Source: a virus
Virus genome (UHGV): UHGV-1706803
Direction: 5' to 3' (one strand)
Length of the DNA stretch: 18,780 bases
Shown one piece after another: positions 11,401 through 18,780 of the stretch. The notes beneath the pieces were generated by a model that worked only from the letters and a program-made list of their open reading frames with translations, made no database searches and was not told where the DNA came from. The position numbers were made by a program, and so were the translations under genes. The first letter of the stretch is position 1. Each line of letters starts with the position of its first letter.

Positions 11401-12789
11401 ATGGCTACTTGGCAAGGAACAAACGGCGGATTGTTGGCTGGTATCGGCGGCGTCAACTCAAACGCTCCGAGCGTAAATGACATCGGCAATACGCTTCAGC
11501 TTATCAGGCAGAACAATGATATTGAGCGTTCAGGCGCTAACAATGTTGGGCTGACTGCTTTGCAAGGCCTTTCAGGTATTGCGGGGGTGTTTCAGCAGGA
11601 AAAGCAGGCTCAGCGGCAGAAAGAATTTCAGCAGGCATACGCTAATGCTTATGCGTCTGGTGATCGCGGTGCTTTGCGTCAGTTGGCTACTCAATATCCA
11701 GACCAGATTGAATCCGTTCGTAAAGGCATGGGATTCATTGATGAAGACCAGCGTAATTCTATCGGCACCTTAGCGGCTGGCGCACGCCTTGCGTCATCGT
11801 CTCCAGAAGCAATGCAATCATGGCTGCAAAACAACGCCAAGGAACTGACTCGCGTCGGTGTTTACCCTAACAGCGTTGCTCAGATGTATCAGCAGAATCC
11901 TTCAGGATTTGGTGAGTTTGTTGATCACCTTGGGATGGCTGCTCTTGGTCCGATTGATTACTTCAATGTTCAGGACAAGATGGCTGGTCGTGAAATTGAC
12001 CGAGGCAGGCTGGCAGAGACAATCCGCAGCAATCAGGCTGGCGAGGCACTAACAGCACGAGGTCAGAACATCACGATGCGCGGTCAGGACTTATCTGCTT
12101 CTACTGCGCGACGAGGTCAGGATTTGGCAATGCAGCGAGCGTCAACAAGACGAATCGCTGGGAATGATGAGCGTACAGTTCAGTTATCAGATGGCAGAAC
12201 TGTAACGGTAGGCGGGAAGCTTCACGGCGCTGGAGCTAATGCGTTCTACGAAGGCATCGACAACGAGGGGAATATGGTTCGCGTTCCTGCCAGTTCAATC
12301 GCAGCGCCTGCAACATCGTCTGCATCAGCACAAAACTATGCCATGAAGAAGGATATCGACGCGATCGCAAATGCAGACGCTTCTGCTCTCGATTTCATGA
12401 CAGGAATGACAGGCGGTGCAGGTAATCCAGCAATTGGTGCTGATGTTCGCAGCCGATTAACAGGAAAAGAGCAGCGCCAGTTATATAACTCAGCACAACG
12501 TATTCAGGGCAGAATGCAGAATCAGGGTGTGGCGGCAGCAAGGGACATGGGTGCCAGTGGTATTAACACCGTTGCAGAAGCGAAGATGTATTTTCAGGGG
12601 ATGCCGCAGGTTGACTATTCAAGCCCGGAGGCTATGCAGCAGTCGATTCGTGAGATTCAGGAATACACCAACAATTACAACCAACAATATAACGTTAATG
12701 TTGGTAAATCTCAGCGGCAGCAATCTCAACCTGCACAGGTATCACAGCCAGCAGCCAGCAGTAACTTTTCTTCACTATGGGGTGATTAA
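11401..12789 (+). CDS. 20: Ejection protein gp20-like, 462 aa
   Basis: Position and size (P22 gp20 about 471 aa); low-complexity Q/A/G-rich composition. Confidence 0.85.
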
Positions 12790-14786
12790 TGGCTAAAGCA
12801 TGGAAAGATGTTATCGCCTCCCCACAGTATCAGGCGTTAGCACCAGAACAAAAAGCGCAGGCTCAGGAGCAATACTTCAATGAAGTCGTGGCCCCGCAAG
12901 CCGGAGAAAATGCAGAGCAGGCTAAGCAAGCTTTCTATGCTGCCTATCCATTGCCATCTGTGCAGCCAGTGGAGACACAACAACCAGTAGCACAGCAACA
13001 ACCACAGCAAAGTGGATTTATGTCTGATCTTGGTGAAGCAGTAAAAGAGACTGGTCGTGGACTGGTGCAGGCTGGCGTGAACGTGGCAAACATACCTGCA
13101 TCAGTTGCCGATGCTGTAACAAGCGCGGCGGCTTGGGCTGGCGGTAAACTCGGCATCGGCGATGGTACATATCAACCAGCACCACGAGTAACAACGCAGG
13201 GATTAGAGCAGGACTTTGGCCTTCAGCAAGGTGCGCTGACTCCACAAACGACAGAGGGAAGGGTATTTGCTGAAGCATTGCCTTACCTCACTCCTGCTGG
13301 CGTTGAGAGAGCGGCGGTACAGGCACCAACACTTGCTGGTCGAATTGCTCAGGGGGCAACTCGCCTTCTAGCAGAAAACGCAGTTGGATCACTTGCTGCA
13401 AATAGTGCGAAAGATGATGCGGAAGCACTCGCCACCGATTTAGGCGTTGGTGTACTTGCTGGCGGTGCTATTAACGCTGCCGGGCGTGGATTAGGTGCTG
13501 CTTATCGTGGCGTTCGTGGTGCTATTGCGCCAGAAGCGCAGCAGGCTATCAGATTTGCAGAGCGTGAAGGTGTTCCTCTGCACACCACAGACCTGTTACA
13601 ACCCACTTCCCGCGTCGGAAAAATGGCGCAAACGACAGCAGAAAATATCCCCCTGGCTGGCACAAGCGGAATGAGAGCAACGCAACAGGAAGCGAGAAGC
13701 CAGTTGGTGCAGAGATTTGCTGATAAATTCGGTGAGTATGATCCAGCGGTTGTTATTGACAGCCTTAAAGCGAAAACATCAGGAATTCGTCGCGCTGCAG
13801 GAAATCGACTGGAGCAGGTTCAGAATGCTATGGCGGGAATAAACATTCAGCCTGCAAGAGCAATTCAGCAGATTGATACAGAAATATCTAACCTGCAGAA
13901 GCTTGGTAAGGTTGCTGATAACGAGACTATTTCAAAACTTCAGTCCTATCGTGATGAGCTTGTTCGCAATGCTGGTCCTGATGGTCCGGTCAATCTGGAT
14001 TTGAAGCAATTAAGCGATCTGCGCAGCCAGTTCAGAATGGACGTGAAGGGTGAGCGACCAGTGTTACCAAACCGTTCCGATGCTGCCATTCAGCGAGTTT
14101 ACAAGGCGATGACCGACGATATCAATGGTGCCATTGGTCAGAATCTTGGCAATGATACTCTTCGTAAATATCAGCAGGCCAATGCCGTCTACGCTGACGA
14201 AGCGGCGAAACTAAAGAATACCAGGCTGAAGAATGTTCTCATGAAAGGCGACCTGACGCCGGAAGTTGTCAACAACATGCTATTCAGCAAGAACAAATCG
14301 GAAATTAAGACTCTGTATAACTCAGTTGGTCGTGTTGGCAGGGCGCAAATGCGCAATGGCATCATTGGAAAGGCGATGGAGAAATCAGGTGGTTCCCCTG
14401 ACCAGTTCCTTCGGCAGCTTAATATCCTGCAAAACCAGACTGGCATCACATTTAAAGGTCAGGAAGCCGCTTATCTGAAAGGATTGAAAAACTACCTGCA
14501 ATCCACGCAGCAGGCTGCAAAAGCGGCAGTAACAACACCAACAGGGCAGCAAACCATCCCGTTCATTATCGGGTATGGGACGGCAATGAACCCGGCGACA
14601 ACTGGCGCAGCGGTAAGCTACGGACTTCTTACTCGCGCCTATGAGAGCGAGCCATTCAGAAATGCAATGCTCCGAATGGCAAACACCCCACGCGGATCAA
14701 CAGCGTTTGAGAAAGCCATGCAGCAGGCGCAAAAGGCCATTAACGCCCTGACTCAAGGTGCCAAGTCTGATGCGTTGTCAGAATAG
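12789..14786 (+). CDS. 16: Ejection protein gp16-like, 665 aa
   Basis: Position; start overlaps the gp20 stop (TAATG). Longer than P22 gp16 (about 609 aa as recalled), with a Q-rich N-terminal segment. Confidence 0.85.
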   Translation: MAKAWKDVIASPQYQALAPEQKAQAQEQYFNEVVAPQAGENAEQAKQAFYAAYPLPSVQPVETQQPVAQQQPQQSGFMSDLGEAVKETGRGLVQAGVNVANIPASVADAVTSAAAWAGGKLGIGDGTYQPAPRVTTQGLEQDFGLQQGALTPQTTEGRVFAEALPYLTPAGVERAAVQAPTLAGRIAQGATRLLAENAVGSLAANSAKDDAEALATDLGVGVLAGGAINAAGRGLGAAYRGVRGAIAPEAQQAIRFAEREGVPLHTTDLLQPTSRVGKMAQTTAENIPLAGTSGMRATQQEARSQLVQRFADKFGEYDPAVVIDSLKAKTSGIRRAAGNRLEQVQNAMAGINIQPARAIQQIDTEISNLQKLGKVADNETISKLQSYRDELVRNAGPDGPVNLDLKQLSDLRSQFRMDVKGERPVLPNRSDAAIQRVYKAMTDDINGAIGQNLGNDTLRKYQQANAVYADEAAKLKNTRLKNVLMKGDLTPEVVNNMLFSKNKSEIKTLYNSVGRVGRAQMRNGIIGKAMEKSGGSPDQFLRQLNILQNQTGITFKGQEAAYLKGLKNYLQSTQQAAKAAVTTPTGQQTIPFIIGYGTAMNPATTGAAVSYGLLTRAYESEPFRNAMLRMANTPRGSTAFEKAMQQAQKAINALTQGAKSDALSE

Positions 14787-14875
14787 CTTCGCAAACACCA
14801 GGAACGTGCAAAAACCAAATATGTAGAACGCAATATTCAGCATATCTCTTTGCATAAATCCTCCGTAACTGATAG

Positions 14876-15136
14876 TTAGCTGCTGTCTTTTTTATATAGC
14901 TCTTTGAGCGTATCAAAGACAATTTTCTTAACCATATCAGATTGTTGTTCTGCCATACGCTCTGCATCGTCAATGTAAACTGATGCAGAGCTTTGTTTAG
15001 CCAATTATTCTTCAATCGCTGCAATTATCTCTGAGTTCAGAGACCTGTTATTCATCTTCGCACGCTGTTTAATTTTCGCGTGGAGTTCATGCGGAAGTCT
15101 TAAGTGAAACTGCGCCTCGTCGTATTTGCTGTACAT
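14876..15136 (-). pseudogene. mnt: Mnt-like ribbon-helix-helix repressor gene interrupted by an in-frame TAA (43-codon N-terminal RHH, then stop, then 42 in-frame codons matching the Mnt C-terminal domain)
   Basis: Minus-strand translation from ATG at 15136: MYSKYDEAQFHLRLPHELHAKIKQRAKMNNRSLNSEIIAAIEE, then TAA (15005-15007), then LAKQSSASVYIDDAERMAEQQSDMVKKIVFDTLKELYKKDSS and a final stop at 14876-14878. The N-terminus carries the Arc/Mnt signature (QF.LR.P ... NGRS.NSE) and the C-terminus closely resembles P22 Mnt (...AERLADEQSELVKKMVFDTLKDLYKKTT, recalled). GAGG lies 8 nt upstream of the ATG. Confidence 0.75.
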
Positions 15137-15209
15137 CCTTGATGCCTCACCAGTTGGGTGGAATGGCATCGTAACCTACTGGATAAATACTCAATAGTAC
15201 CATTTCGGT

Positions 15210-15232
15210 ATGCAATCACATCATGGTTGCAT
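15210..15232. promoter_or_regulatory. Candidate operator: inverted repeat ATGCAA-N11-TTGCAT in the mnt-tailspike intergenic region
   Basis: 6-bp perfect inverted arms read from the sequence, about 26 bp upstream of the tailspike start and inside the 121-bp divergent region. Assignment as an Mnt operator is inference only. Confidence 0.25.
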
Positions 15233-15257
15233 CATATCATTCGTCTGGAGCAATGAA

Positions 15258-17120
15258 ATGTCAGATATCACCGCAAATGTTGTGGTAAGCATGCCTTCGC
15301 AACTCTTCACTATGGCTCGTTCTTTTAAAGCCGTAGCCAATGGCAAAATTTATATCGGTAAAATTGACACTGACCCGGTAAATCCTGAAAACCAGATTCA
15401 GGTTTATGTAGAGAACGAAGACGGCTCTCACGTTCCTGTATCGCAACCAATCATCATTAACGCTGCTGGATATCCGGTATATAACGGACAGATTGCCAAG
15501 TTCGTAACTGTACAGGGCCATTCTATGGCTGTTTATGATGCGTATGGTGCACAGCAGTTTTATTTTCCTAATGTGCTGAAGTATGACCCAGATCAACTCG
15601 AACAGCGACTTTCGTCAAATACTGGCGCATCTTTGATAGGAACCGAATCAGGAAAAACAGTCCAGGAAGAGATAGATAATATCAAGAATGAGGGTTTATT
15701 TACCGAATTTGATAATTTTTCTGACGCAAAGGCGGCGGAGATACAAAACAGAACAATTAGTATAAAATTCAAGTATGGGACAATTAATTATATTAGAAAT
15801 AATACTACAGGGACGGCATCAAGCGGAGACGCTTATGAATTCTTTGATGCCAGTGGTAACGGTTATATCATAGACGAAAAGCAACTAACGAAAAACACAT
15901 CTGGATTGATAAGTCACACGGAGATTTGGGCAGGAGAGGATCTTGATCCAACATATCTTAATAAGGCAAAAGACCTTGGTATAAGTACTTTTGTTGCGTA
16001 TACGTGGAAAGGTAATGCGTACTCATATCATGAGCACTTCCTTGATTTATGTCAGTTATACGGCATTGACGTTATTTTGCAGGCGGTTCCTAATCAACAA
16101 TACACGACAGATCTTGATGCGGATTTTTCATGGCTATCTTCGCTATTTACCCACCCGGCAGTTATTGGTCTATATCTGCTAGATGAACCTGATTTAACAC
16201 TCTACCCGTTAACCCGTCAGGGACAGATCATAGACAAGGCACGCACAATTTCGACATTGCCCCTTTATGCTGCAACTAATGCAGAAGCCAATGGAGAGGC
16301 ATTGCCTCTTCATATGAATTTTGATTACATATTTGCGTCGAACTATGGTCACTTTATCGGTGGTATTGGTATACGAAGATATTCTGCAACAACATGGGCC
16401 TCATTTGAAGAGGAGGGCTTAAGGAAGGGGCGGGTTATTCCACTTTTAACTGCATACTGGTATGAGAACGAAACTCCAACATTAAATACGGCACAGATCA
16501 GAGACGTAAACGATTATTTATCCAGGTCATATAGCAGGCTTGGCATGTGGCAGTTTTGGGGTAATAGAAGTGTAGAAGATGGATATCACTATATTGAAAA
16601 TGATGCTCAGATTTACGATTTGGTTAAAAGCTCTATCGCGTTACGGAAAGGTTTGGTGAAAAAGCCGTCCTTAGTAAGGACTTTTTTTAGAGCCGCATCA
16701 TTACCAGCAAATTGCTACAAGTATCTAACCAAACCAGCGTATCCAGCTAACATCCCTTGGTTAGACCCCTCATCCGCATCAACATGGAATGAGGCGGCGG
16801 TTCTGCGCATCAAGGCTGGAGAGAGATTTGTTGTAAACTTTGGCTCTCCAGTTAAATTAGAGTCAGTAGTTATGACGTTAAAGGACAATAACGGATTGTC
16901 TAATACTGCAACGTTAGCTCTCATCTATAACCCTCTTGTTAGTGGGGGCCAGCAGCATGCAACAACAAAAACCTTAACTGGCGGCGGGGCGCTTGAGTGG
17001 ATTTTCCCTGGAGATGGAACCCCTTCGCACTTGGTCACTACCATTGGGATAAAATGCCTTCGTAGCACAGGAACAGACTACCTCATTGTTGAGCGACTGG
17101 GCTTTGCAATTACGGGCTAA
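15258..17120 (+). CDS. 9: Tailspike protein: P22 gp9-like N-terminal head-binding domain fused to a divergent receptor-binding / putative glycanase domain, 620 aa
   Basis: ATG at 15258 with GGAG 7 nt upstream. The N-terminal 115 aa or so ([59 protein letters not shown]...NVLKYDPDQ) are the conserved P22-family head-binding domain. The remainder is AT-rich and unlike the P22 beta-helix; it includes an LLDEPD motif and alternating hydrophobic strand/helix patterns suggestive of a TIM-barrel hydrolase. Confidence 0.85.
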
Positions 17121-17132
17121 GTTAATGTATAT

Positions 17133-17150
17133 GCGGAAATGGATTTCCGC
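17133..17150 (+). terminator. Stem-loop immediately downstream of the tailspike (GCGGAAA-TGGA-TTTCCGC); possible terminator or binding site
   Basis: 7-8 bp perfect inverted repeat 13 nt after the tailspike stop. No clear U-tract follows, so terminator function is uncertain. Confidence 0.35.
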
Positions 17151-17158
17151 ACAAACGT

Positions 17159-17187
17159 TTGATAACAGCTCTCTTTATGGTTAACAT
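17159..17187 (+). promoter_or_regulatory. Candidate sigma70 promoter for the acyltransferase gene (TTGATA-N17-TAACAT)
   Basis: -35 and -10 like hexamers with 17-nt spacing, read from the sequence, about 35 nt upstream of the ATG at 17222. Confidence 0.3.
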
Positions 17188-17221
17188 TGGTGACATTACT
17201 AATTAATGTTAAATTATATAC

Positions 17222-18262
17222 ATGAAAAACAGAAACATACAGATGCTGAGAGGGGTTTCTATAATCCTCGTCCTCATTGCTCATGCAGATACAGTGTATT
17301 GGGAAGAATTGAAAAGTATAAAAAAATATATAGACCCAACCATTGGTGTGGATTTGTTTTTTATAATTTCTGGTTATCTAATGGGGGCAACCTTCATCAG
17401 AAAGGTATTATTTGACATTAACCTTAAACACACCATTTCATTTTATATCAAAAGGCTAAACAGGCTTTTCGTTCCGTGCCTATTCTGGTCTTTCATTGTA
17501 TTTGCTCTATTTGACTACTGGCACCTTGCCGGTTTTATAAAAACGCAAGAACAGGCTTTTAAGATATTTATATCTTCAGCGACATTTACTGGTAATATAT
17601 ATAATAGCATCAAGCCTAGTGGCTTCGGGTACTTCTGGTCATTAGGTGTTGAGTTCCAGTTTTATCTAATACTTCCGCTTATTCTATTAATATGCAAAGA
17701 CATGAAGTCATTAATTATCCTGCTTGTCATAATGCTTGGCTTCTACACCTGTGTTTTGAGTTTATTCCCTGAGTCATGGCAATACAGAGCAAATGCACTT
17801 TATATCGGACTTTTGATTTGGTGCGTTACTCAGAGTGAAGGCTATCACGAAATCAAGAAATCTATAAATAATAACGGATGTGTATATATTTGTTTTATCG
17901 TCGGCGCACTCATTCTTGCTGCCTTATGCTTATCCCCTGCATTATATAAAGTGCACGGAGTTAGCTTTACGGCTATATCTATTTTATTGGGATTGGCCTT
18001 CTTTATTTGTGTATGCATGGACAAACCAATAGCTGCATTTATATCAAAACCAATTGAGTTTATTGGTGATATATCTTTTTCCTTATACCTGTGCAACATT
18101 CCTGTTTATATTTTTGTGTCGAGAGAAATGTTTACGCGCGGAATGGGAAAGCCGGAAACTATGATTGTTTCTGTCGTATTAAGTATTGCGGTTGCAACTG
18201 CAAGCCGTTACACATTAGAAAAAATAGATTTTATAAAGTTAAATAAAAATCTAGTTAGGTGA
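17222..18262 (+). CDS. Integral-membrane acyltransferase family 3 protein, probable O-antigen O-acetyltransferase (Oac/OafA-like lysogenic conversion gene), 346 aa
   Basis: N-terminal MLRGVSIILVLIAHA and GVDLFFIISGYLMG motifs are characteristic of the acyltransferase_3 family; multiple hydrophobic helices; AT-rich composition; location downstream of the tailspike, as for oac in Sf6. Confidence 0.85.
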   Translation: MKNRNIQMLRGVSIILVLIAHADTVYWEELKSIKKYIDPTIGVDLFFIISGYLMGATFIRKVLFDINLKHTISFYIKRLNRLFVPCLFWSFIVFALFDYWHLAGFIKTQEQAFKIFISSATFTGNIYNSIKPSGFGYFWSLGVEFQFYLILPLILLICKDMKSLIILLVIMLGFYTCVLSLFPESWQYRANALYIGLLIWCVTQSEGYHEIKKSINNNGCVYICFIVGALILAALCLSPALYKVHGVSFTAISILLGLAFFICVCMDKPIAAFISKPIEFIGDISFSLYLCNIPVYIFVSREMFTRGMGKPETMIVSVVLSIAVATASRYTLEKIDFIKLNKNLVR

Positions 18263-18301
18263 AGGAAGAATTACCAGCAAGGAAACTAGTGATATGGGCA
18301 C

Positions 18302-18334
18302 TAGCGCAAGACTGACAGCTACGGTCTTGCGCTA
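18302..18334. repeat. Perfect 11-bp inverted repeat (TAGCGCAAGAC / GTCTTGCGCTA) with an 11-nt loop
   Basis: Read directly from the sequence, about 40 nt downstream of the acyltransferase stop. No U-tract follows. Confidence 0.5.
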
Positions 18335-18408
18335 ATCCCTCACACTATCTCATCAAGCCAGTCTGCCCACCACTGCATCATTTCTCTGCGCTTAATGTAG
18401 CGGATGCC

Positions 18409-18425
18409 TCACTATCACATAGTGA
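18409..18425. repeat. Palindrome TCACTAT-CAC-ATAGTGA
   Basis: 7-bp inverted arms read from the sequence. TCACTAT resembles the core of lambda-type Int arm-site consensus (recalled). Confidence 0.4.
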
Positions 18426-18651
18426 TGGTTCATTACTGCTTTGTAGAATGGATAGAGAACTGAGGATAAAAAGATATCCCAAAACCCAAAAATCTCATCT
18501 TTAGGATTTGCAGAAAGGGAGACGTGAACAGATACCTGCGCATGAAGACGGAACTAGTCCAGATGTGATATTTGTGGTGATCACATACATCATCAACGAT
18601 GCTCGTTATGGTGAGCTTGATGACTACCCGCTGAAGTGAAAATTGTGTTGT

Positions 18652-18671
18652 GTACCAAATTGCGTACCAAA
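18652..18671. repeat. Direct repeat GTACCAAA x2 with 12-bp periodicity
   Basis: gtaccaaattgcgtaccaaa read from the sequence, in the non-coding region at the 3' end of the window. Confidence 0.4.
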
Positions 18672-18780
18672 CTAAAATCACAAATCATGAAACCCTGGTT
18701 CATGGCGGTTCTCAGGGGTGTTGCGCGTAATCGTGAAACAAAAAGGTAGATTGTTGCTTACCGTCATTCATCATTAGGTT

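What the first reader, a model, noticed from the sequence alone, without database searches (positions are those of the whole stretch)
17222..18262. O-antigen acyltransferase conversion gene in the same AT-rich block as the tailspike receptor domain
This is an acyltransferase_3 family membrane protein, the family of Oac and OafA O-antigen acetylases. It sits directly downstream of the tailspike in an AT-rich block that begins inside the tailspike gene. This suggests the receptor-recognition domain and the enzyme that modifies the same surface polysaccharide were acquired together, pairing adsorption specificity with serotype conversion or superinfection exclusion. The gene has no obvious Shine-Dalgarno and may have its own promoter (TTGATA-N17-TAACAT).
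Basis: partly seen in the sequence, partly recalled or inferred. Interest (0 to 1): 0.55.

Follow-up and report, generated by a model that had tools for sequence, protein, structure and literature searches.

The report
Prophage tailspike-linked O-antigen acyltransferase gene
An E. coli prophage carries an intact membrane acyltransferase gene right after its tailspike gene, and the tailspike's sugar-recognising half and this enzyme occur as a matched pair in unrelated temperate phages, which fits the well-known trick of a prophage chemically altering its own surface receptor.

Summary
The ORF at 17222-18262 is a real, intact, standalone AT3 acyltransferase (PF01757, E 3.7e-29). Its R-X10-H and RXXR motifs are present, and it is under purifying selection (dN/dS about 0.11). 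It sits 101 nt downstream of a P22-type tailspike, at the right end of a prophage integrated in sbcB. This is the classical serotype-conversion locus of Sf6, Sf101 and BTP1.

Compared with Sf101, the window has replaced exactly the tailspike receptor domain plus the acetylase (15596-18349). A 2.33-kb block covering receptor domain, spacer and AT3 is about 87% identical to an unrelated temperate podophage. A second receptor-domain/AT3 type, about 50% identical in both genes, occurs in two further backbones. Seven lytic-looking phage types and one P2-like myophage with the same receptor domain have no AT3 nearby.

More distant AT3 relatives lie in chromosomal O-antigen loci, and a distant receptor-domain relative is followed by gtrABC. 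O-antigen acylation that blocks the phage's own tailspike is therefore the best explanation, but it is inferred and not shown.

This is a new, rare member of a known kind. It is absent from 5,426 complete E. coli genomes and 50,697 phage records. Interest is moderate to low.

The parts
15258..15595 (+). Tailspike N-terminal head-binding (virion anchor) domain. The ORF opens at 15210 but the probable start is 15258 (MSDITANVV...).
   Evidence: Pfam Head_binding E 2.2e-67 at aa 17-129 of the 636-aa ORF. NCBI homolog is 620 aa. 94% DNA identity to Sf101 up to 15595.
15596..17120 (+). Tailspike receptor-binding/enzymatic domain (RBD). Predicted as a TIM-barrel glycosidase-like domain plus a C-terminal beta-sandwich, not a beta-helix.
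   Evidence: Homology to other P22-like phages stops at 15595. AlphaFold model pLDDT 83. Foldseek hits are GH5/GH39/GH66/GH2 enzymes and CBM32 modules. 51-80% identical RBDs sit on other anchors.
15596..18349 (+). Segment exchanged relative to phage Sf101: RBD, spacer, AT3 and 87 nt. The flanks on both sides are 92-94% identical to Sf101, which carries a different RBD and a convergent oac in the same place.
   Evidence: blastn window vs L010 (Sf101): 14868-15595 at 94%, 18350-18755 at 92%. Sf101 annotation.
15917..18243 (+). Contiguous 2,328-bp block shared with an unrelated temperate podophage (L095). Identity is a uniform 81-92% through the RBD, the spacer and AT3.
   Evidence: blastn 86.7% over 2,328 bp. 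Sliding identity profile shows no internal breakpoint. L095 backbone has an integrase and a different tailspike anchor.
17124..17159 (+). Hairpin just after the tailspike stop codon (core GCGGAAAT-GG-ATTTCCGC, 17133-17150). Possibly the end of the late operon; the T-run is weak.
   Evidence: Inverted repeat I2. RNA fold -12.8 kcal/mol, z -2.6. Conserved in L095 but not in the type B copies.
17159..17187 (+). Promoter-like TTGATA-N17-TAACAT upstream of AT3. A candidate only.
   Evidence: Found by the scan, 9 of 12 matches, but site density is not above shuffles. TTGAT(A/C) plus a TAnnnT hexamer 17 nt downstream is positionally retained in all four cassette copies.
17222..18262 (+). Standalone AT3 (acyltransferase-3) integral membrane acyltransferase, 346 aa. 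Putative O-antigen O-acetyltransferase (lysogenic conversion gene).
   Evidence: Pfam PF01757 E 3.7e-29 and PHROG O-acetyltransferase. R10-X10-H21 and R78-x-x-R81 are invariant. Model pLDDT 88 with about 10 long helices. dN/dS 0.11.
18296..18339 (+). Strong stem-loop 34 nt after the AT3 stop codon. Terminator-like but without a U tract.
   Evidence: Inverted repeat I3. RNA fold -25.4 kcal/mol, z -6.4, 0 of 200 shuffles fold as well.
18348..18394 (-). Remnant of the 3' end of an IntS/Sf6-type integrase gene, marking the right edge of the exchanged segment.
   Evidence: 95.7% identical to Sf6 at the int 3' end, also present in Sf101, with a 20-nt core in C. freundii prophage L003. Matches intS in an E. 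coli record.
18726..18780 (.). Host sbcB 3' end, marking the attR junction region. The prophage is integrated in sbcB like Sf101 and phage 2851.
   Evidence: 100% match to sbcB in nearly all E. coli genomes. Annotated as the attP type 2851 / insertion duplication in phage records. L001 continues into dacD-sbmC-yeeA-yeeX.

Best explanation
The window is the right end of a P22-like (Lederbergvirus-type) prophage integrated in E. coli sbcB. Its last gene encodes a standalone AT3 membrane acyltransferase.

By analogy with Sf6 Oac and BTP1 OafB, the enzyme would take an acyl group (most likely acetyl, from acetyl-CoA) across the inner membrane through its 10-helix pore. The TMH1 Arg-X10-His and TMH3 RXXR motifs would serve this step. 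It would then put the acyl group on a sugar hydroxyl of the O-antigen repeat unit.

That O-antigen is the glycan that the phage's own tailspike binds and cleaves, using a TIM-barrel glycosidase-like receptor domain. The lysogen's receptor would no longer fit, giving serotype conversion and exclusion of the same or similar phages.

Both proteins must match the same glycan. The receptor domain, spacer and AT3 therefore behave as a specificity-matched cassette of about 2.3-2.75 kb that recombines between unrelated temperate phages. The exchange points are the junction after the tailspike anchor domain and the conversion-locus edge next to attP.

What is shown and what is inferred:
- Shown: gene integrity, family motifs, selective constraint, location, cassette-level co-inheritance, and restriction of the pairing to temperate backbones.
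- Inferred: O-antigen as substrate, acetyl as the group transferred, expression in the lysogen, and blocking of the tailspike.
For: AT3 identity and integrity:
- Family matches.
- R10...H21 and R78xxR81 are invariant in relatives and align with Sf6 Oac, Sf101 Oac and BTP1 GtrC. These motifs are the ones defined in PMC9833829.
- Confident all-helical model. It matches a 637-aa viral protein at TM 0.71.
- dN/dS is 0.107 and 0.134.

Locus:
- The gene lies between the tailspike and attR/sbcB.
- This is the same locus that holds oac in Sf6 and Sf101 and gtrC in BTP1.
- Another P22-like contig (L015) holds a 36%-identical AT3 there.

Cassette:
- Allelic replacement of RBD plus acetylase relative to Sf101.
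- A uniform 87% block spans the RBD, spacer and AT3 with podophage L095.
- Identities track each other. Window-L095: RBD 80.5%, AT3 88.9%. L003-L005: RBD 84%, AT3 73.7%. Between the two types: RBD 51-52%, AT3 47-50%.
- Between-type dN is equal: AT3 0.44, RBD 0.42-0.44.
- Backbones cross-cut cassette types. L005 and L095 share a backbone but carry different types.
- Seven lytic-looking phage types and one P2-like myophage with the same RBD family have no AT3 nearby.

O-antigen:
- AT3 relatives at 38-39% identity lie between ugd and wzz/his beside O-antigen genes.
- A 32%-identical RBD relative in a C. freundii prophage is followed by gtrA-gtrB-gtr(type).
- The RBD is glycosidase-like.
- Blocking of the phage's own tailspike by phage-encoded O-acetylation is documented for Sf6 and BTP1 (PMC9558356).
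Against: - There is no biochemical or phenotypic evidence. The substrate and the acyl group cannot be read from sequence, and AT3 substrates are very diverse.
- Identity to characterised O-antigen acetylases is only 26-27%, no closer than those are to each other.
- NCBIfam gives no named equivalog.
- The promoter-like site is not statistically distinguishable from chance, and there is no Shine-Dalgarno sequence.
- The gene is co-oriented with the late operon, unlike oac and gtrC in Sf6, Sf101 and BTP1, so expression in the lysogen is unproven.
- In the L003-L005 pair the RBD and spacer are 93-98% identical but AT3 only 65-81%. The two genes can therefore be separated by recombination.
- A P2-like phage carries the RBD without an adjacent AT3.
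- Only four independent cassette loci were available.
- One 40%-identical relative sits in a flagellar region, not an O-antigen locus.
Confidence: 0.6

Rival explanations
1. The AT3 acylates a different surface glycan (a K-antigen capsule, enterobacterial common antigen, colanic acid or similar) rather than the O-antigen. The tailspike would then be a depolymerase for that glycan. The logic of receptor masking would be the same.
For: AT3 proteins act on capsules, ECA, peptidoglycan and other glycans (PMC9558356). PHROG 8280, annotated as colanic-acid-degrading tailspike, matches the tailspike, though only over aa 17-250. Prophage acetyltransferases associate with capsule type in Klebsiella (PMC13123978). 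From my own knowledge, the P22-like phage CUS-3 pairs a K1-capsule tailspike with a capsule O-acetyltransferase. The ugd-wzz region also borders group 1/4 capsule loci.
Against: Chromosomal relatives sit beside wzz and O-antigen-type glycosyltransferase genes. A distant RBD relative is paired with gtrABC, a system known for O-antigen glucosylation. The hosts are E. coli, Shigella dysenteriae and C. freundii.
Confidence: 0.15
2. The adjacency is positional only. The end of the late operon next to attP is a general hot spot for accessory genes, and the AT3 and the receptor domain were acquired independently and are not functionally coupled.
For: Conversion genes are known to be highly mobile between phage types (PMC2629481). 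GC differs between RBD (42%) and AT3 (35%). The L003-L005 pair has a breakpoint at the AT3 start.
Against: Two rare families (19 RBD clusters, and about 21 close AT3 clusters, in 5.8 billion proteins) are adjacent in four loci on three unrelated backbones. In the siphophage L003 the tailspike is not a P22-type gene. One uniform block spans both genes. The types match in all four loci and between-type dN is equal. Even after the breakpoint in type B, the AT3 is still type B.
Confidence: 0.1
3. The AT3 creates or tunes the receptor rather than destroying it. The tailspike would prefer the acylated glycan, or the modification would mainly serve the bacterium (immune evasion, serum resistance) with no effect on this phage.
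For: The gene is co-oriented with the late operon, so read-through in lytic growth is possible. Some phages require a prior conversion; epsilon34 needs an epsilon15 lysogen (PMC2629481). O-acetylation affects antibody recognition (abstracts).
Against: The lytic-looking phages with the same RBD family lack the AT3. This argues that the RBD does not need an AT3 of its own and that the gene is useful only in lysogeny. The characterised precedents block the cognate tailspike.
Confidence: 0.1
4. The gene is a decaying passenger without function in this prophage.
For: Some E. coli assemblies carry the gene split into two fragments. The neighbouring mnt-like repressor has an in-frame stop in this window. 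There is no recognisable ribosome-binding site.
Against: The reading frame is full length with every invariant residue, dN/dS is 0.11-0.13, and the start region is conserved.
Confidence: 0.04

Closest known systems
Oac of Shigella phage Sf6 (standalone AT3 O-antigen O-acetyltransferase)
   Same: Same architecture: AT3 only, about 333-346 aa, 10 predicted helices. Same motifs (R-X10-H, FFxISGY, RXXR, WxLxxE). Same phage type (P22-like) and same locus between the tailspike and attP/int. Sf6 Oac blocks the Sf6 tailspike.
   Different: Only 26.5% identity over 181 aa. Sf6 oac is convergent to the tailspike gene, whereas this gene is co-oriented. The Sf6 tailspike is a beta-helix endorhamnosidase (my own knowledge); here the receptor domain is predicted to be TIM-barrel-like. 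The target glycan is unknown.
Oac of phage Sf101 (serotype 7a/1b-type O-acetyltransferase)
   Same: Closest backbone. The flanks on both sides of the cassette are 92-94% identical, the integration site (sbcB region) is the same, and an RBD plus acetylase occupies exactly the same slot.
   Different: Both the RBD and the acetylase are unrelated alleles: AT3 27% identity, opposite orientation, 390 aa.
GtrC(BTP1)/OafB and OafA of Salmonella (AT3-SGNH O-antigen acetyltransferases)
   Same: Best-scoring characterised relative (26% over 352 aa, E 4e-19). Prophage-borne next to the tailspike in BTP1, where it protects against the BTP1 tailspike.
   Different: Those proteins carry an 11th helix and a periplasmic SGNH domain (640 aa). 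This one lacks both and must complete the transfer alone or with an unknown partner.
Phage gtrABC O-antigen glucosylation clusters (P22, epsilon34, SfV and others)
   Same: Same biological role and the same locus. They are known to move between phage types. A distant member of this RBD family is paired with gtrABC in a C. freundii prophage.
   Different: Different chemistry (glucosylation through three proteins) and no sequence relationship.

Membership tests
Acyltransferase-3 (AT3, PF01757) | Match to the family profile above the curated threshold over the whole domain | tested here: met
   102.3 bits against a cut-off of 31, E 3.7e-29, profile positions 3-322 of 326.
Acyltransferase-3 (AT3, PF01757) | R-X10-H motif in TMH1 (Arg14/His25 in OafB) | tested here: met
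   R10 and H21 with ten residues between them. Invariant in 20 relatives and aligned with Sf6 Oac and BTP1 GtrC. Motif definition from PMC9833829.
Acyltransferase-3 (AT3, PF01757) | RXXR motif at the cytoplasmic face of TMH3 | tested here: met
   R78-L-N-R81, invariant. Aligns with KRARRIF in Sf6 and RRILRIF in BTP1.
Acyltransferase-3 (AT3, PF01757) | Ten transmembrane helices forming the AT3 fold | tested here: met
   AlphaFold model pLDDT 88, pTM 0.88, all-helical with about 10 long helices. TM 0.71 to a 637-aa viral protein. Hydropathy is consistent. No solved AT3 structure is available for comparison. This is a prediction only.
Acyltransferase-3 (AT3, PF01757) | Acyl-CoA-dependent O-acylation of an extracytoplasmic carbohydrate | not testable with these tools
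   Needs biochemistry.
Phage serotype-converting O-antigen acetyltransferases (Oac / OafB class) | Encoded in a temperate phage at the conversion locus between the tailspike and attP/int | tested here: met
   Tailspike at 15258-17120, AT3 at 17222-18262, sbcB junction at 18726. Same slot as oac/gtrC in Sf6, Sf101 and BTP1.
Phage serotype-converting O-antigen acetyltransferases (Oac / OafB class) | Orthology (close sequence relationship) to a characterised O-antigen acetylase | tested here: not met
   26-27% identity to Sf6 Oac, Sf101 Oac and BTP1 GtrC, no closer than these are to each other. No NCBIfam equivalog. Best phage-database hit is 28%.
Phage serotype-converting O-antigen acetyltransferases (Oac / OafB class) | O-antigen is the acceptor and lysogens change serotype or phage adsorption | not testable with these tools
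   Indirect support only: relatives in O-antigen loci and an RBD relative paired with gtrABC.
Phage serotype-converting O-antigen acetyltransferases (Oac / OafB class) | Expression from the repressed prophage (own promoter) | tested here: inconclusive
   The promoter-like site is positionally conserved in four copies but not above chance in the scan. A hairpin lies upstream.
OafA/OafB-type AT3-SGNH fusion | C-terminal periplasmic SGNH domain after an 11th helix | tested here: not met
   The protein ends at residue 346 and only the AT3 domain is found. It has Oac-like standalone architecture.

The most novel reading that the evidence does not exclude
The tailspike receptor domain and the AT3 form a portable, specificity-matched 'key plus lock-changer' cassette. 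It moves between podophage and siphophage backbones in E. coli, Shigella and Citrobacter. Selection keeps the AT3 type matched to the receptor-domain type even when recombination separates them. The cassette is built around a non-beta-helix, TIM-barrel glycosidase tailspike family that has not been characterised. If this is general, the adjacent modifier could be used to predict which glycan a temperate phage's receptor domain recognises.
Probability: 0.45. Interest if true: 0.5.

Novelty: new member of a known kind. Interest (0 to 1): 0.35.

Why it matters
Phage-borne O-antigen modification drives serotype diversity, vaccine escape and phage resistance in enteric bacteria. This gene is a rare, uncharacterised allele in E. 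coli and Shigella. It would add an unrecognised O-acyl variant to some O-serogroup and make lysogens resistant to phages that use this tailspike type.

The comparative result is the more useful part. The receptor-recognition domain and its cognate modifier are inherited and kept as a matched pair across unrelated temperate phages, while the lytic-looking relatives (and one P2-like myophage) have no modifier nearby. This gives a concrete, testable example of offence and defence specificity being packaged together. It also flags an unstudied TIM-barrel-type tailspike enzyme.

Tried and rejected
- PDB sequence search and Foldseek against PDB for the AT3 found nothing significant. No solved AT3 structure is recognisable.
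- NCBIfam gave no named family and PADLOC gave no defence-system match.
- Megablast and blastn against 5,426 complete E. coli genomes found only the flanks, with no copy of the AT3 or the RBD. The host O-type therefore could not be read from a complete genome.
- Phage-database DNA search found only the flanks.
- Scans of IMG/VR and of the GTDB species genomes for the RBD gave one locus each. One of these (L013) ends at the contig edge and is uninformative.
- Literature searches for phage LSB-1, for TIM-barrel O-antigen tailspikes and for a described RBD-plus-acetylase cassette found nothing specific. This is not proof of novelty, because subscription journals are not searched.
- Base composition was rejected as evidence of co-acquisition.
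- The promoter claim could not be raised above chance.
- I considered that the 82-aa ORF at 18433-18681 (minus strand) might be an S24/HumD remnant, as annotated in some records. It has no Pfam, PHROG or PADLOC match.
Full report
**What is there**

The window is the late-gene end of a P22-like prophage. Gene 16-type DNA-transfer protein (12789-14786) matches PHROG 770. It is followed by a short low-GC region with an Arc/Mnt-type repressor gene. Next comes a tailspike whose N-terminus is the P22 head-binding domain (Pfam E 2.2e-67). The ORF of the finding then runs from 17222 to 18262.

After that ORF there are about 460 nt of phage DNA shared with Sf101, mEp234 and Stx phages of the '2851' attachment type. 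The last 55 nt (18726-18780) are the 3' end of the host gene sbcB, present in nearly every E. coli genome. The same prophage end in a draft E. coli genome continues into dacD-sbmC-yeeA-yeeX (L001). The gene is therefore the last gene of the prophage, lying between the tailspike and attR.

**The gene is real and intact**

- It matches Pfam Acyl_transf_3 nearly end to end (E 3.7e-29). It also matches PHROG families annotated as O-acetyltransferase and O-antigen acetylase.
- In an alignment of 20 relatives, R10, H21, D44, F46, F47, S50, G51, R78, R81, W139, S140 and E144 are invariant.
- R10-X10-H21 and R78-x-x-R81 are the two motifs that define AT3 domains and are essential in OafB and Oac (PMC9833829). 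They align with the corresponding residues of Sf6 Oac, Sf101 Oac and BTP1 GtrC.
- The AlphaFold model is confident (pLDDT 88) and consists of about ten long helices. It superposes on a 637-aa viral protein at TM 0.71. No solved structure matches, which agrees with the literature.
- The protein has no SGNH domain, so it is a standalone AT3 like Oac rather than like OafA or OafB.
NCBI's start at Met8 is probably too short.
- Comparison of the two closest pairs of copies gives dN/dS of 0.107 and 0.134, so the gene is under purifying selection.

**Which details of the observation do not hold**

- GC content is 50.4% in the structural genes. It drops to about 41% at 14787, upstream of the tailspike.
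- The head-binding part (42.5%) and the receptor part (42.2%) of the tailspike do not differ. The spacer is 30.7% and the AT3 gene 35.4%.
- The boundary inside the tailspike is a homology boundary, not a compositional one.
- TTGATA-N17-TAACAT is present (17159-17187). The scan finds no more promoter-like sites than in shuffled sequence, 9 against 12.3.
- In favour of the promoter, TTGAT(A/C) followed 17 nt later by TAnnnT is retained at the same place in all four cassette copies, although the spacer is otherwise diverged.
- None of the copies has a Shine-Dalgarno sequence.
- A modest hairpin follows the tailspike stop codon (-12.8 kcal/mol, z -2.6). A strong hairpin follows the AT3 stop codon (-25.4 kcal/mol, z -6.4), but neither has a proper U tract.

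**Co-inheritance with the receptor domain**

1. *Comparison with Sf101.* The window is 94% identical to the closest backbone, phage Sf101, up to 15595, which is the end of the head-binding domain. It is 92% identical again from 18350. Between these points Sf101 has an unrelated receptor domain and a convergent oac. The unit that differs is exactly 'receptor domain plus acetylase'.
2. *Nearest relatives of the AT3.* In 5.8 billion proteins these are few, and they sit directly downstream of tailspike genes in other temperate phages:
   - L095, a podophage-like contig with integrase. AT3 is 88.9% identical.
   - L005, the same backbone family. AT3 is 49-50% identical.
   - L003, a lambdoid siphophage prophage of Citrobacter freundii. 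AT3 is 50% identical.
3. *Shared receptor domain.* The tailspikes next to these genes share the window's receptor domain but not its anchor. Identities are 80.5%, 51% and 52% respectively.
4. *Two cassette types.* The four loci fall into type A (window, L095) and type B (L003, L005). Receptor-domain type and AT3 type coincide in all four. Between-type nonsynonymous divergence is the same in both genes: AT3 0.44, receptor domain 0.42-0.44.
5. *Backbones cut across the types.* L005 and L095 share about 79% identical backbone DNA but carry different cassette types.
6. *DNA level.* Window 15917-18243 is one uninterrupted 2,328-bp alignment with L095 at 86.7% identity. It is uniformly 81-92% identical through the receptor domain, spacer and AT3.
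7. *A breakpoint in the type B pair.* L003 and L005 also align as one 2,343-bp block. The profile shows 93-98% identity in the receptor domain and spacer but 65-81% in the AT3. A breakpoint therefore lies at the AT3 start. The genes can be separated, yet the AT3 that is present is still type B. This fits selection for a matched pair rather than simple hitch-hiking.

**Restriction to temperate backbones**

The receptor-domain family has only 19 clusters. It is fused to at least four anchor types: Head_binding, Tail_spike_N, the T7 tail-fibre N-terminus, and an unnamed podophage anchor.

Loci with this receptor domain but no AT3 nearby:

- a siphophage next to replication genes (L096-98)
- T7-like phages (L100/101; LSB-1)
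- an Ackermannviridae phage (vB_EcoM-ZQ1)
- a multi-tailspike phage (L103)
- another siphophage (L104/105)
- a P2-like myophage (L099)

**Substrate**

Nothing here shows the substrate directly. Three lines of context point to the O-antigen:

- AT3 relatives at 38-39% identity lie, as tandem pairs, between ugd and wzz/his next to glycosyltransferase genes. This is the enterobacterial O-antigen locus.
- A 32%-identical member of the receptor-domain family in a C. freundii prophage is followed by a convergent gtrA-gtrB-gtr(type) cluster, the other classical O-antigen modification system.
- The receptor domain is predicted to be a TIM-barrel glycosidase-like domain with a C-terminal carbohydrate-binding-type beta-sandwich (pLDDT 83). 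Foldseek hits are GH5, GH39, GH66 and GH2 enzymes and CBM32 modules, at low TM scores. It has an invariant D-E-P that resembles the acid/base motif of clan GH-A (the comparison is my inference).

One relative at 40% identity sits in a flagellar region, so context is not uniform.

The precedents for the mechanism are Sf6 Oac and BTP1 OafB, whose acetylation sterically blocks the phage's own tailspike (PMC9558356).

**Comparison with known systems**

- The protein works like Oac: a standalone AT3 at the same locus in the same phage type. It is not an orthologue of any characterised acetylase. Identity is 26-27%, there is no NCBIfam equivalog, and the best hit among 50,697 phage records is 28%.
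- It differs from Sf6, Sf101 and BTP1 in being co-oriented with the tailspike rather than convergent.
- It is rare. It is absent from all 5,426 complete E. coli genomes even at distant sensitivity. The 90% cluster occurs on roughly 100 contigs of E. coli and Shigella dysenteriae, and in some of these the gene is split into fragments.
- Mobility of conversion genes between phage types is already known for gtrABC (PMC2629481).
- I found no description of a joint receptor-domain-plus-acetylase cassette or of this tailspike fold in the searchable library. That library is incomplete.

**Verdict**

It describes a new, rare member of a well-known kind of system: phage-encoded O-antigen modification for serotype conversion and superinfection exclusion. 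The added value is clear evidence that the modifier and the receptor-recognition domain are kept as a matched pair across unrelated temperate phages. Function remains inferred. Interest is moderate to low.

Noticed in passing
window 15596-17120: The tailspike receptor domain is predicted to be a TIM-barrel glycosidase-like domain plus a C-terminal CBM-like beta-sandwich, not the usual beta-helix. It has an invariant D-E-P motif. The family has only 19 clusters in 5.8 billion proteins, yet is fused to at least four different virion anchors in podo-, sipho- and myophages.
   Followed up: partly
window 14876-15169 (minus strand): The Arc/Mnt-type repressor gene upstream of the tailspike has an in-frame TAA stop at 15005-15007. 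The copy in the related E. coli contig L001 (1317-1583) is an intact 88-aa gene. In this window it is truncated after the ribbon-helix-helix part or is a pseudogene.
   Followed up: partly
window 18348-18394: A 47-nt remnant of the 3' end of an IntS/Sf6-type integrase gene lies exactly at the right edge of the exchanged segment. The same stretch borders the conversion module in Sf6 (inside the int 3' end) and in Sf101. A 20-nt core follows the conversion genes of C. freundii prophage L003. It may be a recombination boundary sequence.
   Followed up: partly
window 18296-18339: A very stable stem-loop (13-bp GC-rich stem, -25.4 kcal/mol, z -6.4) lies 34 nt after the AT3 stop codon and has no U tract. 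Its function is unknown; it could be a terminator or a protein-binding site near attR.
   Followed up: partly
window 17222 vs 17243; 15210 vs 15258: Start codons in public annotation are inconsistent. NCBI starts the AT3 at Met8 (339 aa), although MKNRNIQ is conserved in relatives. The tailspike ORF opens at 15210, but the conserved P22-type start MSDITANVV is at 15258 (620 aa).
   Followed up: yes
L003 8685-11024 vs L005 8661-10997: In the second cassette type, the receptor domain and spacer are 93-98% identical between a Citrobacter siphophage prophage and a podophage contig, but the AT3 is only 65-81% identical. This indicates a recent recombination breakpoint at the AT3 start, with the AT3 type retained.
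   Followed up: yes
L003 11123-12193 (minus strand); L007 6688-9044; L009 6700-9047: AT3 genes often come in pairs. The C. freundii prophage has a second, unrelated AT3 convergent to the first. The chromosomal O-antigen-locus relatives occur as tandem AT3 pairs between ugd and wzz.
   Followed up: no
protein cluster of P0001: In several E. coli assemblies the same AT3 is annotated as two adjacent fragments of 114-176 aa. This suggests frameshift or nonsense inactivation in some lysogens.
   Followed up: no
window 18433-18681 (minus strand): An 82-aa ORF conserved with Sf101 gp17 (hypothetical protein) lies between the cassette and attR. It has no Pfam, PHROG, NCBIfam or PADLOC match. Some E. 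coli records annotate an S24/HumD-type gene in this area.
   Followed up: partly
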